64,000 nt of DNA, taken from positions 8,970-72,969 of the forward strand of contig JAIPEE010000018.1 in NCBI GenBank assembly GCA_021737275.1. Reading direction: 5' to 3'. Position 1 is the first letter of the stretch. Each line of letters begins with the position of its first letter. Position numbers and translations under genes: made by a program. The notes beneath the pieces were generated by a model. The model saw only the letters and a list, made by a program, of their open reading frames with translations. It did not search any database and was not told the origin of the DNA. Positions 16,517-18,580 of the stretch are shown here, piece by piece. The stretch comes from Desulfobacterales bacterium (lineage in GTDB: Bacteria; Desulfobacterota; Desulfobacteria; Desulfobacterales; JAIPEE01).

Positions 16517-17110
16517 ATGGCTCAGGAAAATAAAGTGCCTCATGTACACAAAAAGCGTAAGACATTTATTAAGCCTGCCGTTTTCATTATTATCGGGATT
16601 ATTATCGCTTTCCCCATCTTCAGTATGACCTATTATACAATGGTACGTACCTCTACCCCTCAATTCTGTGCGTCATGCCATGAAATCCAACCCGCTTATG
16701 ATGCATGGAAAACATCAAGCCATGCCAATAATGCCCAGGGCTTTGTTGCGGACTGTATGGACTGCCATCTGCCGGCCCCACATGAAACCATAGATTTCTT
16801 TTACGCCAAAACAATTCACGGCATTAAAGATGTCGTCGCCCACTTTGTGGGGGAGGAATATGACCGGGCTGAAATGCGTGAACTGGCTTACCGTAGCATT
16901 AAAAATTCCCAGTGCATGAAATGCCACCGGAATTTACTCTATATCCCGGATAAACGCGGAGCCATGCTGGCTCATCGTACCGTTATTTACCCTGTTGACG
17001 GTAATGAAAAACGGTGTACGGACTGCCATCGCAATCTGGTTCATATCCCTAAAGAAACTTATAATTACAAACAGTATGCATCTGAACCATACAGGGGACT
17101 GGGGCTTTAA
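16517..17110 (+). CDS. NapC/NirT/NrfH family membrane-anchored tetrahaem cytochrome c
   Basis: There is an N-terminal TM helix and four CXXCH sites (CASCH, CMDCH, CMKCH, CTDCH). GGAGGG precedes the ATG. Confidence 0.85.
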   Translation: MAQENKVPHVHKKRKTFIKPAVFIIIGIIIAFPIFSMTYYTMVRTSTPQFCASCHEIQPAYDAWKTSSHANNAQGFVADCMDCHLPAPHETIDFFYAKTIHGIKDVVAHFVGEEYDRAEMRELAYRSIKNSQCMKCHRNLLYIPDKRGAMLAHRTVIYPVDGNEKRCTDCHRNLVHIPKETYNYKQYASEPYRGLGL

Positions 17111-17182
17111 TTAAATGAAAACCTGTCAGCATTGTTGACTGAAATTTTTCAATATTAACATAAACAAAAGGAGGCGTCCAAA

Positions 17183-18580
17183 ATGAAAAGGGTCTTACCG
17201 GTATTGGCATTGATAGTCGGTCTTGGAGTGCTGTCTTATGCCGCAGGTGACGCACTCGCTCAATCGGATCTTTCGAAGGAAAAAGAGTTCAGAATTGAGC
17301 GCAGCATGTCGAAAGAGGCCATGGCATGTCTCGATTGCCATAAACGTGAACATCCCGGACTGTTTGCAGACTGGGCCAACAGCCGGCACGCCAGTGCCAA
17401 TATTACCTGTCTGGACTGCCATCAGGCCGAAGAACATGATGGTGATGTGAGCCGGGAGCATTACAAACAGTATGAGCGATCCGACACAAAGTTCGGCACC
17501 AAAGAATATAAAACACCGGTTACAGCAGTCGTCACGCCAAAGGACTGCTCCCGCTGTCATCCGGATGAAGCCAAACAATATAGCAGGAGCAAGCATGCCA
17601 ACACCATGGAAATCATCTGGAAAATAGACCCGTGGCTGAATAAAGGAATGAATAGTGATTTTGAGCGTGCTGCAGGCTGCTATCATTGCCACGGAACAAT
17701 CCTGAAAACTGATGAGAACGGCAAACTTGATTCTGAAACATGGCCGAATGTCGGTGTGGGCAGAGTCAATCTTGACGGCAGTCTGGGCAGTTGTTCAAGT
17801 TGTCATACGCGCCATCGTTTTTCTGTAATGGAAGCCCGAAAACCTGAAGCCTGCGGCCAGTGTCACCTCGGACCTGACCATCCCCAGATAGAGATCTACA
17901 TGGAATCCAAACATGGTGATATTTACACCGCATTTGGCGATGAATATAACTGGAATTCCGCTCCCGGCACATGGACAGCCGGTGTTGATTTCAGAGGGCC
18001 GACATGCGCATCATGTCATATGTCCGGTTCCGGTACGATTATGACATCCCATGATGTAACCGAAAGACTCTCATGGGAACTTCAGGCACCACTGACCATT
18101 CGTCCGGAAGATTTCCCGGCATTTCCGGCTAAAACGGATTGGAAAGTTGAGCGCAGCAAAATGCAGGAAGTTTGTATGCAGTGCCATGGAAAGACCTGGG
18201 TGGAAGATCATTATTACAAACTGGACAGGGTAGTTGAAGAATATAATGAGGTTTACTTCAAACCGGCTAAAGAGATGCTGGGCACATTATATGAAAAAGG
18301 CCTGCTTGATGAAACAAGGTTCTTTGATGAACGCCTGGAGGTTGAATATTATGAACTCTGGCACCATGAGGGCCGGCGAGCAAGAATGGGTACGGCCATG
18401 ATGGCACCTGATTATGCCTGGTGGCACGGCTTTTACGAGTGTAAAAAGCGTTACAGCAACTTTATGGAAGAGGCCAGGGAGCTGATTGAGCATGGCAAAC
18501 CGGCATATAAAGCCGAAGACTTTCCGAATGCGACCGGAAGTACTGAAAAACCGCCAATGCTTTTCCCTGACGGTAAATAA
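17183..18580 (+). CDS. Periplasmic octahaem cytochrome c, hydroxylamine-oxidoreductase (HAO)-like
   Basis: There is a signal peptide (..SYAAGDALA) and eight CXXCH sites (CLDCH x2, CSRCH, CYHCH, CSSCH, CGQCH, CASCH, CMQCH). The [22 protein letters not shown] and [11 protein letters not shown] blocks resemble HAO-family proteins. Confidence 0.75.
   Translation: [465 protein letters not shown]

What the first reader, a model, noticed from the sequence alone, without database searches (positions are those of the whole stretch)
16517..18580. NapC/NrfH-type tetrahaem plus octahaem HAO-like cytochrome pair in an anaerobe-type genome
Seen in sequence:
- A membrane-anchored tetrahaem (four CXXCH) is followed 72 nt later by a secreted 465-aa protein with exactly eight CXXCH motifs and no CXXCK.
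- The second protein has blocks such as [22 protein letters not shown] and [11 protein letters not shown].

Established knowledge:
- Octahaem HAO-family enzymes that lack the cross-linking tyrosine act reductively, for example the epsilonproteobacterial Hao reducing nitrite or hydroxylamine to ammonium.
- Such enzymes are typically paired with a NapC/NrfH-type quinol dehydrogenase.

Inference: this pair may give the organism a non-NrfA route for nitrite/hydroxylamine/NO detoxification or ammonification. I cannot determine the cross-link tyrosine status by eye. Octahaem tetrathionate or nitrite reductase relatives remain possible alternatives.
Basis: partly seen in the sequence, partly recalled or inferred. 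Interest (0 to 1): 0.55.

Follow-up and report, generated by a model that had tools for sequence, protein, structure and literature searches.

The report
Quinol-linked reductive HAO-type octahaem pair
A sulfate-reducer-type bacterium carries a two-gene unit, a membrane tetrahaem cytochrome plus a secreted eight-haem relative of hydroxylamine oxidoreductase that lacks the "oxidising" tyrosine; it probably reduces nitrite, NO or hydroxylamine, and it belongs to a widespread gene family whose physiological role has not been shown.

Summary
ORF A (16517-17110, 197 aa) has one N-terminal membrane helix and four CXXCH motifs. After a 72-nt gap, ORF B (17183-18580, 465 aa) has a signal peptide, eight CXXCH and no CXXCK. 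A is a NapC/NirT-family tetrahaem, not a true NrfH. B belongs to the HAO family by sequence and predicted fold. MccA, OTR, ONR and NrfA are excluded.

The NeHAO cross-link Tyr467 aligns with Trp413 or Trp414. B carries the Met-x7-Trp pattern reported for the reductive epsilonproteobacterial Hao. It also keeps the HAO active-site Asp-His pair.

B is identical to a Desulfobacterales MAG protein. Relatives were found in 471 species genomes, mostly Desulfobacterota, at 73-84% identity among those listed. The A-B pair is kept in 76 of 76 loci with enough upstream sequence. The hybrid-cluster protein gene hcp lies within 3 kb in 12 of 80 loci.

B is only 31% identical to a Nautilia-type eHao, so it forms a separate, biochemically uncharacterised subfamily.

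Most likely mechanism: menaquinol, then A, then B, reducing nitrite, NO or hydroxylamine. The substrate is inferred, not shown. Verdict: a new member of a known kind, of modest interest.

The parts
16345..16374 (+). Sigma-70-type promoter-like site, TTGACA-18 nt-AAAAAT, about 145 nt upstream of ORF A
   Evidence: It is the best promoter-like match in the region, 10 of 12 positions. TTGACA is enriched upstream of the orthologous operons: 28 of 68 loci against about 4 in shuffles. This is a consensus match only, and the number of promoter-like sites in the region is not above the shuffle mean.
16517..17110 (+). ORF A: membrane-anchored NapC/NirT-family tetrahaem cytochrome c, the putative menaquinol dehydrogenase
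   Evidence: - Four CXXCH motifs and an N-terminal hydrophobic helix.
- PF03264 at 1.8e-36.
- Best solved relative is NrfH 2j7a_C at 6.7e-11.
- The NCBIfam NrfH score of 85 bits is below the 134-bit cut-off.
- The first haem motif reads CASCHEI, so the NrfH methionine is replaced by Ile, invariant in 59 orthologues.
17169..17174 (+). Shine-Dalgarno AGGAGG for ORF B
   Evidence: Read directly from the sequence, 8 nt before the ATG at 17183.
17183..18580 (+). ORF B: secreted octahaem cytochrome c of the HAO family that lacks the cross-link tyrosine (reductive type)
   Evidence: - Eight CXXCH motifs and a signal peptide.
- PF13447 at 1.2e-30.
- Profile against PDB: IhOCC 1.7e-113, NeHAO 5.5e-57, KsHAOr 9e-55.
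- AF2 model with pLDDT 89.3.
- Foldseek TM 0.71 to 4qo5, 0.62 to 6h5l and 0.56-0.59 to NeHAO.
- 31% identity and 236 bits to a Nautilia-type eHao.
17678..17692 (+). Fourth haem motif, C166-Y-H-C169-H170: the predicted catalytic five-coordinate haem
   Evidence: It aligns with NeHAO C229-T-M-C232-H233 in the profile alignment. That this NeHAO motif is the P460 haem-4 motif rests on my own knowledge. The review PMC8840924 says haem 4 is the HAO active-site haem.
17876..17881 (+). Asp232-His233, equivalent to the NeHAO active-site pair Asp267-His268
   Evidence: The block CHLGPDHPQ aligns to NeHAO CHSGVDHNN and KsHAOr CHMGPDHPD. IhOCC has PDVP at the same place. The pair is invariant in 120 homologues.
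18398..18424 (+). Met406 to Trp413-Trp414: the segment that occupies the cross-link tyrosine position of oxidative HAOs
   Evidence: NeHAO Tyr467 (PGGWTY467TEGW) aligns to W413 by HMMER and MAFFT, or to W414 if no gap is allowed. The Nautilia-type eHao has AAMGSPDYAHWHG at the same place. M406, W413 and W414 are invariant in 120 homologues.
18595..18644 (.). Perfect 23-bp hairpin flanked by A and T runs: a bidirectional intrinsic terminator between the convergent ORF B and the M24 peptidase gene
   Evidence: Folding gives -42.6 kcal/mol and z = -7.4, with 0 of 200 shuffles as stable. It produced sub-threshold Rfam hits on both strands.

Best explanation
This is a self-contained two-gene operon with a promoter-like site, ORF A, ORF B and a terminator hairpin. 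It encodes a periplasm-facing quinol:N-oxide reductase module.

- ORF A is a NapC/NirT-family tetrahaem cytochrome held in the cytoplasmic membrane by one N-terminal helix. It would oxidise menaquinol and pass electrons to ORF B.
- ORF B is a Sec-exported HAO-family octahaem cytochrome, probably trimeric like other HAOs. It has seven bis-His relay haems and one five-coordinate catalytic haem (haem 4, C166/C169/H170).
- B lacks the Tyr-haem P460 cross-link, so it should work reductively. Likely substrates are nitrite, NO and/or hydroxylamine. The product would be ammonium, or hydroxylamine or NO that cytoplasmic Hcp and flavodiiron proteins then remove.
- In sulfate reducers that do not grow on nitrate, the likely role is detoxification of nitrite and nitrosative stress, or opportunistic ammonification.

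Shown here: the family, the haem and ligand inventory, the absent Tyr, the conserved pairing and the hcp linkage. Inferred: the quinol donor, the oligomeric state, the substrate and the product.
For: Family and fold:
- A is PF03264 and B is PF13447.
- B's top PDB sequence, profile and fold matches are all HAO-family enzymes.
- The AF2 model is confident, with pLDDT 89.3 and pTM 0.85.

Reductive signature:
- NeHAO Y467 aligns to Trp.
- KsHAOr, a solved cross-link-free nitrite reductase, has the same WW (PMC8042395).
- Met406-x7-Trp414 matches the eHao pattern quoted in PMC8940962. It is also seen directly in a Nautilia-type eHao.

Catalytic machinery:
- Asp232/His233 correspond to NeHAO D267/H268 and are invariant.
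- There are exactly seven invariant candidate distal His residues for eight haems.

Coupling of A and B:
- The pair is conserved in 76 of 76 scorable loci, from 471 species genomes with relatives of B.

Link to N-oxides:
- hcp (PF03063, 2.4e-173) lies within 3 kb in 12 of 80 loci.
- It is directly downstream on the same strand in 6 of them.
- A flavodiiron-like gene sits between hao and hcp in 2 loci.

Precedent:
- Recombinant eHaos reduce nitrite and hydroxylamine (PMC8042395 citing Haase 2017).
- Nautilia uses Hao, a NapC/cM552-type cytochrome and Hcp in the reverse-HURM pathway (PMC3701875).
Against: - No member of this Desulfobacterota subfamily has been assayed.
- B is only 31% identical to eHao and about 25-33% to the solved HAO-family proteins.
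- NeHAO Tyr334 in the active-site pocket corresponds to Gln301 in B.
- The closest solved structure, IhOCC, comes from a sulfur-reducing archaeon with no known N metabolism, and its in vivo role is unknown (PMC4429474).
- The window holds no nap, nar, nrfA or hcp gene, and the operon's flanking genes are unrelated housekeeping genes.
- No conserved N-oxide-responsive regulator site was found upstream.
- Auka-vent authors proposed a sulfur substrate for Desulfobacterota HAO-family proteins (PMC9213671).
- hcp linkage is seen in only 15% of loci, and these loci are not phylogenetically independent.
Confidence: 0.6

Rival explanations
1. The same two-protein quinol-to-periplasm module reduces a sulfur compound (sulfite, thiosulfate, tetrathionate or polysulfide), or acts as a general periplasmic electron sink or relay, with no role in nitrogen chemistry.
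For: - The family is most common in Desulfobacterota, most of which are not known N-oxide respirers. PMC9213671 proposes sulfur reduction for a Desulfobacterota HAO clade and notes that clades I and II have unknown function.
- The closest solved structure, IhOCC, is from a sulfur reducer. That protein is reduced by the native hydrogenase and has been discussed as an electron relay.
- Other members of the multihaem fold family (MccA, OTR) handle sulfur oxyanions.
- cysE and cysK neighbour the pair in 8-9 of 80 loci.
Against: - B retains the Asp-His pair of N-converting HAOs, which IhOCC lacks (PDVP).
- It has no MccA or OTR signatures and no similarity to those enzymes.
- Recurrent linkage is to hcp and a flavodiiron gene, not to dsr, ttr, psr or phs genes.
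- The only assayed Tyr-less bacterial HAOs reduce N-oxides.
Confidence: 0.2
2. B is an NO-forming nitrite reductase like Kuenenia HAOr (one-electron reduction), not an ammonium-forming enzyme.
For: - KsHAOr shares the WW residues at the cross-link position and the PDHP active-site block.
- It reduces nitrite to NO (PMC8042395).
- Neighbouring hcp and flavodiiron genes in some loci could remove the NO.
Against: - KsHAOr is a distant relative, at 26% identity, 103 bits and on the outgroup branch.
- It works with a dihaem partner, Kustc0457, not a NapC-type quinol dehydrogenase.
- Deliberately making NO has no obvious use in a sulfate reducer.
- The nearer eHao enzymes reduce nitrite and hydroxylamine.
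Confidence: 0.12
3. B is an oxidative HAO, a hydroxylamine or hydrazine dehydrogenase that feeds electrons through A into the quinone pool (forward HURM).
For: - Public annotations of many orthologues read 'hydroxylamine dehydrogenase/oxidoreductase'.
- The gene pair resembles HAO plus cM552 of ammonia oxidisers.
- A genome paper on Desulfofaba assumed hydroxylamine oxidation (PMC10116758).
Against: - The cross-link Tyr is replaced by Trp in all 120 close homologues.
- Tyr-less HAOs show negligible oxidative activity.
- The nearby Tyr411 is also present in the Nautilia-type eHao.
- No amo or hzs genes are in the window, and the host is a strict-anaerobe lineage.
Confidence: 0.03
4. B belongs to another octahaem family (MccA sulfite reductase, OTR or ONR), and the HAO resemblance comes only from shared haem motifs.
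For: All of these families share CXXCH-rich sequence. Weak hits occur to ONR (8e-10 on an 80-residue stretch) and MccA (2.8e-3).
Against: - The full-length profile match to HAO-family structures reaches 1e-113 to 1e-33, against short-stretch hits to the others.
- Foldseek TM is 0.55-0.71 for HAOs, 0.33-0.37 for ONR, 0.15 for MccA, and OTR is absent.
- B has no CXXCK and no CX15CH.
Confidence: 0.01

Closest known systems
Epsilonproteobacterial Hao (eHao; Haase et al. 2017) with a NapC/cM552-type tetrahaem: the 'reverse HURM' of Nautilia profundicola (PMC3701875)
   Same: - It is an HAO-family octahaem without the cross-link Tyr.
- It shares the Met-x7-Trp pattern: eHao AAMGSPDYAHWHG against [13 protein letters not shown] here.
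- It shares the PDHP active-site block.
- A NapC/NrfH-superfamily quinol dehydrogenase is the proposed electron donor.
- Hcp is the proposed or linked downstream enzyme.
- It gives the highest bit score of all reference proteins compared (236 bits).
   Different: - Identity is only 31%, with two long insertions in eHao.
- It sits in a separate clade in the NJ tree. The eHao cluster representative P0166 groups with P0130, P0148 and P0157, not with the query clade.
- In N. profundicola the tetrahaem gene (NAMH_0559) is not next to hao (NAMH_1280). Here the two genes form a strictly conserved pair.
IhOCC, the Ignicoccus hospitalis octahaem cytochrome c (PDB 4QO5; Parey et al. 2016)
   Same: - It is the closest solved structure: profile E 1.7e-113 and Foldseek TM 0.71.
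- It shares the WPN-G-GR-NPDGS segment between haems 4 and 5 that NeHAO and KsHAOr lack.
- It has no cross-link Tyr.
   Different: - IhOCC has Val where this protein and the N-cycle HAOs have the active-site His (PDVP against PDHP).
- It has a roughly 70-residue insertion before haem 8.
- It is archaeal and membrane-associated, and its physiological role is unknown.
Kuenenia stuttgartiensis HAOr (Kustc0458/0457; PDB 6H5L; PMC8042395)
   Same: It is a Tyr-less reductive HAO with the same WW at the cross-link position and the same PDHP block. It has been shown to reduce nitrite, NO and hydroxylamine.
   Different: - It is 26% identical and lies on a distant branch with NeHAO.
- Its partner is a soluble dihaem cytochrome, not a membrane NapC-type protein.
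- It resides in the anammoxosome, and its product is NO.
Oxidative HAOs: Nitrosomonas europaea HAO, Kuenenia HOX and HDH
   Same: They share eight haems in the same order, the haem-4 catalytic motif, the Asp-His pair and the overall fold (TM 0.55-0.60). In ammonia oxidisers HAO is also linked to a NapC-family cytochrome (cM552).
   Different: - This protein has no Tyr467 equivalent, so no P460 cofactor and no covalent trimer are expected.
- NeHAO Tyr334 corresponds to Gln301 here.
- There is no C-terminal extension.
- Identity is about 20-25%.
NrfHA cytochrome c nitrite reductase complex (Desulfovibrio vulgaris; PDB 2J7A)
   Same: The logic is the same: a membrane tetrahaem quinol dehydrogenase plus a periplasmic multihaem nitrite reductase. 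ORF A's only solved relative is NrfH, at 6.7e-11.
   Different: - B is not NrfA: it has no CXXCK, eight rather than five haems, and TM about 0.2.
- A lacks the NrfH CXXCHXM methionine.
- A has an extra conserved RGAMLAH segment.
- A scores below the NrfH equivalog cut-off.

Membership tests
HAO family of octahaem cytochromes c (Pfam PF13447) | Eight CXXCH motifs in one polypeptide, co-linear with those of solved HAOs | tested here: met
   Eight CXXCH motifs. All eight align to IhOCC, NeHAO and KsHAOr in the profile alignment. They are invariant in 46 diverse and 120 close homologues.
HAO family of octahaem cytochromes c (Pfam PF13447) | Significant full-length sequence similarity to HAO-family proteins above the curated threshold | tested here: met
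   PF13447 scores 107 bits against a cut-off of 21.9. The family profile against PDB gives 1.7e-113 (4qo5), 5.5e-57 (4fas) and 9e-55 (6h5l).
HAO family of octahaem cytochromes c (Pfam PF13447) | HAO fold | tested here: met
   The AF2 model has pLDDT 89.3. The top 11 Foldseek PDB hits are all HAO-family, with TM 0.55-0.71 and probability 1.00. The next family, ONR, reaches TM of at most 0.37.
HAO family of octahaem cytochromes c (Pfam PF13447) | Seven bis-His haems plus one five-coordinate catalytic haem (haem 4), with an Asp-His pair in the distal pocket | tested here: inconclusive
   The counts fit: seven invariant non-motif His residues (H69, H93, H138, H211, H244, H290, H394/395) and D232/H233, which align to NeHAO D267/H268. 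Actual ligation cannot be read from sequence, and the model has no haems.
HAO family of octahaem cytochromes c (Pfam PF13447) | Homotrimeric quaternary structure | not testable with these tools
   No multimer prediction was available.
Oxidative (P460) HAO / HOX / HDH | Tyrosine that cross-links to the catalytic haem of the neighbouring subunit (NeHAO Tyr467) | tested here: not met
   Tyr467 aligns to Trp413 by HMMER profile and MAFFT L-INS-i, or to Trp414 without a gap. Both are invariant Trp in 120 homologues. The nearby Tyr411 is also present in the Nautilia-type eHao, which the authors of PMC3701875 state lacks the critical tyrosine.
Epsilon-Hao-type reductive HAO (Haase et al. 2017) | Trp at the cross-link Tyr position and a Met eight residues before it | tested here: met
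   M406 and W414 are eight residues apart and invariant. The same pattern occurs in the Nautilia-type eHao ORF L081:294-1826. The feature is described in PMC8940962, which cites Haase. The pattern is also widespread in other non-oxidative clades, so it is not specific to eHao.
Epsilon-Hao-type reductive HAO (Haase et al. 2017) | Phylogenetic clustering with Campylobacterota Hao | tested here: not met
   B is 31% identical to the Nautilia-type eHao. The eHao cluster representative P0166, which is 84% identical to L081, groups with other clades in a distance tree, while the query groups with P0121, P0125, P0126 and P0137. The tree is NJ without bootstrap.
Epsilon-Hao-type reductive HAO (Haase et al. 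2017) | Nitrite and hydroxylamine reductase activity with negligible hydroxylamine oxidation | not testable with these tools
   This needs purified protein.
NapC/NirT/NrfH superfamily of tetrahaem quinol dehydrogenases (Pfam PF03264) | An N-terminal membrane helix followed by four CXXCH motifs, with a match above the Pfam threshold | tested here: met
   PF03264 scores 125.9 bits against a cut-off of 24.1, covering residues 18-177. The helix and four motifs are read from the sequence.
NrfH (NCBIfam TIGR03153 equivalog) | Score above the equivalog cut-off, and a CXXCHXM first haem motif whose Met ligates haem 1 | tested here: not met
   The score is 85.4 bits against a cut-off of 134.2. The first motif is CASCHEI where D. 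vulgaris NrfH has CTSCHIM, and the Ile is invariant in 59 orthologues. The role of that Met as a ligand is from my own knowledge of the 2J7A structure.
MccA / OTR / ONR / NrfA | MccA: a CX15CH haem motif. ONR and NrfA: a CXXCK catalytic haem motif. For all four: sequence or fold similarity. | tested here: not met
   - B has no CX15CH and no CXXCK.
- MccA reaches E 2.8e-3 and TM 0.15.
- ONR and NrfA match only on a stretch of about 70-90 residues, with TM 0.37 or less.
- OTR is absent from all hit lists.

The most novel reading that the evidence does not exclude
This NapC-Hao pair is exceptionally conserved: 73-84% identity among the listed relatives, which span Desulfobacterales, Syntrophobacteria, Desulfohalobiaceae and Desulfobulbaceae, and 189 of 465 residues are invariant in the 120 closest homologues. 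It may be a core periplasmic enzyme of sulfate reducers with a substrate nobody has assigned. One possibility is the main, overlooked route for reducing nitrite, NO or hydroxylamine to ammonium in marine sediments, which would be cryptic DNRA by organisms counted as non-N-cyclers. The other is a sulfur-oxyanion or polysulfide reductase, which would be the first non-nitrogen function in the HAO family.
Probability: 0.2. Interest if true: 0.6.

Novelty: new member of a known kind. Interest (0 to 1): 0.3.

Why it matters
Genes annotated 'hao' from Desulfobacterota are among the most abundant 'nitrogen-cycle' genes in anoxic sediments and microbial mats (PMC8940962, PMC5552932, PMC9213671). KEGG-style pipelines score them as hydroxylamine oxidation, which the missing tyrosine makes very unlikely.

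This locus is a clean example of the dominant sulfate-reducer subfamily:
- a fixed two-gene quinol-linked module;
- a complete HAO catalytic inventory, minus the cross-link;
- recurrent linkage to hcp.

If the enzyme reduces nitrite, NO or hydroxylamine, sulfate reducers gain an NrfA-independent detoxification or ammonification route, and metagenomic N budgets should count these genes as reductive. If it acts on sulfur compounds instead, that would be a new chemistry for the family. The gene pair itself is already recognisable and widely annotated, so the specific finding is confirmatory rather than surprising.

Tried and rejected
1. The look-up of encoding contigs for the exact protein returned nothing on record. 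Context came from the search for related loci instead.
2. I looked for a regulator signature upstream of 68 orthologous operons. There was no sigma-54 promoter and no general FNR/CRP- or HcpR-like palindrome. Only TTGACA was enriched. I therefore make no regulatory claim.
3. An Rfam scan of the operon and its 5' leader found no riboswitch. The only sub-threshold hits were caused by the terminator hairpin.
4. The weak hairpin in the A-B spacer, flagged as terminator-like, is not more stable than shuffles (z = -0.6). I rejected it as a terminator.
5. Two cluster look-ups to find a named Campylobacterota eHao among the 50%-cluster representatives failed. The Haase 2017 paper is not held.
6. An eHao reference was finally obtained by searching metagenome contigs with the published N. 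profundicola hao qPCR primers. Both match L081 exactly, 202 bp apart.
7. MccA, OTR, ONR and NrfA membership was considered and rejected.
8. Tyr411, two to three residues upstream of the cross-link position, was considered as a possible cross-linker. I rejected it because the same Tyr is present in the Nautilia-type eHao, and in IhOCC and KsHAOr the position is Trp or Val.
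Full report
**Observation.**
- ORF A (16517-17110, +, 197 aa) has a hydrophobic N-terminal segment at about residues 19-37. 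Its four CXXCH motifs start at residues 51, 80, 133 and 167.
- ORF B (17183-18580, +, 465 aa) starts 72 nt later, behind an AGGAGG ribosome-binding site.
- B has a typical Sec signal peptide (MKR, hydrophobic stretch, ALA|QS). Its eight CXXCH motifs start at 49, 76, 122, 166, 204, 224, 275 and 331.
- B has no CXXCK, no CX3-4CH and no MccA-type CX15CH motif. Both quoted sequence blocks are present.

**Operon boundaries.**
- The genes on either side lie on the opposite strand: an unknown 152-aa protein and an M24 peptidase. They are unrelated to respiration.
- A TTGACA-18-AAAAAT promoter-like site lies at 16345-16374.
- A perfect 23-bp hairpin follows the stop codon of B at 18595-18644, with -42.6 kcal/mol and z = -7.4.
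- The unit is therefore a stand-alone bicistronic operon.

**What the proteins are: ORF A.**
- A matches the NapC/NirT family (PF03264, 1.8e-36).
- Its only solved relative is Desulfovibrio vulgaris NrfH, at 6.7e-11.
- It is not an NrfH equivalog. It scores 85 bits against a 134-bit cut-off.
- Its first haem motif is CASCHEI where NrfH has CXXCHXM, and the Ile is invariant in 59 orthologues.
- It also has a conserved RGAMLAH segment that NrfH lacks.

**What the proteins are: ORF B.**
- B matches PF13447 at 1.2e-30.
- By single-sequence search its best solved relatives are IhOCC from Ignicoccus (4QO5, 1.8e-45), the Kuenenia reductive HAO (6H5L, 3.7e-23) and Nitrosomonas HAO (9e-22). NrfA and MccA appear only at E above 0.01.
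- A profile of 46 diverse family members sharpens this:

| Reference | Profile E-value |
|---|---|
| IhOCC | 1.7e-113 |
| NeHAO | 5.5e-57 |
| KsHAOr | 9e-55 |
| KsHOX | 1e-41 |
| HDH | 2e-33 |
| ONR | 8e-10 (about 80 residues only) |
| MccA | 2.8e-3 |
| OTR | no hit |

- An AlphaFold2 model built on the same alignment is confident, with pLDDT 89.3 and pTM 0.85.
- The top 11 Foldseek PDB matches are all HAO-family proteins, with TM 0.71 for IhOCC and 0.55-0.62 for the rest.
- ONR reaches at most 0.37, NrfA about 0.2 and MccA 0.15.
B is in the HAO family, not in Otr, MccA or ONR.

**Cross-link tyrosine and active site.**
- In the profile alignment the NeHAO chain reads PGGWTY467TEGW. The numbering is checked by D267/H268 and C229/C232/H233 falling where expected.
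- Tyr467 aligns with Trp413 of B in both the HMMER alignment and an independent MAFFT L-INS-i alignment. Without the one-residue gap it aligns with Trp414. Either way the residue is Trp.
- KsHAOr, whose structure lacks the cross-link and which reduces nitrite (PMC8042395), has the same WW.
- PMC8940962, citing Haase et al., describes the eHao hallmark as a Trp at the Tyr position with a Met eight residues before it. B has Met406 and Trp414.
- M406, Y411, W413 and W414 are invariant in 120 close homologues.
- B keeps the distal Asp-His pair of N-converting HAOs: D232/H233 correspond to NeHAO D267/H268. IhOCC has Val in place of the His.
- NeHAO Tyr334 corresponds to Gln301 in B.
- Seven invariant non-motif histidines are available for seven bis-His haems. 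That leaves one five-coordinate haem, by homology haem 4 at C166/C169/H170.

**Direct comparison with eHao.**
- No eHao sequence could be found by name.
- I searched metagenome contigs with the N. profundicola hao qPCR primers printed in PMC3701875.
- Both primers match contig L081 exactly, 202 bp apart, inside a 510-aa octahaem ORF on an AT-rich contig.
- B is 31% identical to this Nautilia-type eHao over 500 columns (236 bits). That exceeds its score to IhOCC (142), KsHAOr (103) or NeHAO (92).
- The eHao motif AAMGSPDYAHWHG lines up with [13 protein letters not shown] in B.
- In a distance tree the eHao cluster representative P0166, 84% identical to L081, does not group with the query's clade of P0121, P0125, P0126 and P0137.
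- B therefore works like an eHao on present evidence but belongs to a different subfamily.

**Distribution and context.**
- More than 7,900 database proteins match B. The top 120 are 74-84% identical, and many are labelled hydroxylamine oxidoreductase or dehydrogenase.
- An exhaustive search of 50%-identity cluster representatives finds 1,526 clusters at E of 1e-3 or better, and 208 at 1e-30 or better.
- In one genome per species, 471 genomes encode a relative. The best 80 are almost all Desulfobacterota.
- Cultured carriers include Desulfatibacillum alkenivorans, Desulfacinum infernum and D. hydrothermale.
- The ORF A homologue sits immediately upstream, with gaps of 1-321 nt, in 76 of 80 loci. 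The other four have less than 250 nt of upstream sequence.
- Nothing else is conserved around the pair.
- The hybrid-cluster protein gene hcp (PF03063, 2.4e-173) lies within 3 kb in 12 of 80 loci. It is directly downstream on the same strand in six.
- A flavodiiron-like gene lies between hao and hcp in two loci.
- For a single-copy gene this is far above chance, though the loci are not phylogenetically independent.
- Sigma-54-type response regulators (16 loci) and cysE/cysK (8-9 loci) also recur.

**Mechanism.** The best-supported reading is a quinol:N-oxide reductase.
- Menaquinol is oxidised by the membrane tetrahaem A.
- Electrons pass along the haem wire of periplasmic B to haem 4.
- There nitrite, NO and/or hydroxylamine are reduced.
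- The architecture is that of NrfHA and of the Nautilia 'reverse HURM' (Hao, a NapC/cM552-type cytochrome and Hcp; PMC3701875).
- Recombinant eHaos reduce nitrite and hydroxylamine with negligible oxidation (PMC8042395 citing Haase 2017).
- Most carriers are sulfate reducers not known to respire nitrate. The window has no nap, nar, nrfA or hcp gene. A detoxification or opportunistic role is therefore more likely than a dedicated respiratory one; this is inference.
- Shown here: family, fold, motif and ligand inventory, absent Tyr, obligatory pairing and hcp linkage.
- Inferred: electron donor, trimer, substrate and product.

**Rivals.**
- A sulfur-compound or electron-relay role cannot be excluded. 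PMC9213671 notes that HAO-family clades I and II outside Campylobacterota have unknown function, and it proposes sulfur reduction for a Desulfobacterota clade.
- The in vivo role of IhOCC, in a sulfur reducer, is also unknown.
- An NO-forming activity like KsHAOr is possible.
- An oxidative role is very unlikely, although many public annotations imply one and one genome paper assumed it.
- Membership of MccA, OTR or ONR is excluded.

**Novelty.** The gene type, its Tyr-less nature and its abundance in Desulfobacterota are already described in survey papers. This subfamily has no biochemical characterisation. The finding is a correct call on a known but functionally unproven kind, so a new member of a known kind with modest interest.

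Noticed in passing
window 47590-50226 (+), with 46392-47474 (+) upstream: An 878-aa ORF fuses an N-terminal cytochrome bd subunit-I-like membrane domain (PF01654, 1.9e-10, residues 17-242) to a c-type region with eight CXXCH motifs. A 360-aa membrane ORF with no Pfam match precedes it. This is a second, unrelated eight-CXXCH protein with an unusual architecture.
   Followed up: partly
window 38236-45468 (+): A cluster of oxygen- and NO-defence genes: rubrerythrin, ferritin, cydA, cydB, a 114-aa trihaem c3/c7-type cytochrome (42515-42859), an FMN-reductase/LMW-phosphatase fusion and a flavodiiron protein. It lies about 20 kb from the Hao pair and is not adjacent to it.
   Followed up: partly
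window 27434-33848 (-): A type III restriction-modification system: Res (898 aa) and Mod (760 aa), with a KilA-N domain protein (243 aa) inserted between them, followed by a DUF6933 protein.
   Followed up: no
window 18595-18644: An exceptionally long, perfect 23-bp hairpin with a GAAA loop, flanked by A and T runs, between convergent genes. It is probably a bidirectional terminator. It caused spurious sub-threshold Rfam hits to PyrG leader, rli51 and mir-934 on both strands.
   Followed up: yes
window 16323-16336: TTGGTAAAAATCAA lies 194 nt upstream of the ORF A start and just upstream of the -35 box. It has one mismatch to the FNR/CRP-type palindrome TTGAT-N4-ATCAA. Perfect or near-perfect TTGAC-N4-GTCAA sites occur upstream in only 3 of 68 orthologous loci (L003, L069, L077), so it is not a general feature.
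   Followed up: partly
P0122, P0123, P0142 (representative-search hits; not in the window): Some relatives of B are 727-734 aa long. The HAO module sits at the C-terminus (residues about 310-720), nine CXXCH motifs are present, and a roughly 300-residue N-terminal extension is of unknown nature.
   Followed up: no
P0322, P0325, P0331 and P0169, P0335, P0336 (public names of relatives): Several HAO-family relatives carry clearly wrong public names: 'beta-ketoacyl-ACP synthase' in Deltaproteobacteria MAGs and 'nitrate reductase' in Anaerolineae MAGs. PMC8940962 treated the 'nitrate reductase' label as informative, but it is probably annotation error that has spread.
   Followed up: no
L060 and L073 (contigs binned as 'archaeon'), L038 ('Nitrospinaceae'): Orthologues 74-79% identical to B sit on short contigs assigned to archaeal or Nitrospinaceae MAGs. 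This is more likely mis-binning of Desulfobacterota contigs than true distribution.
   Followed up: no
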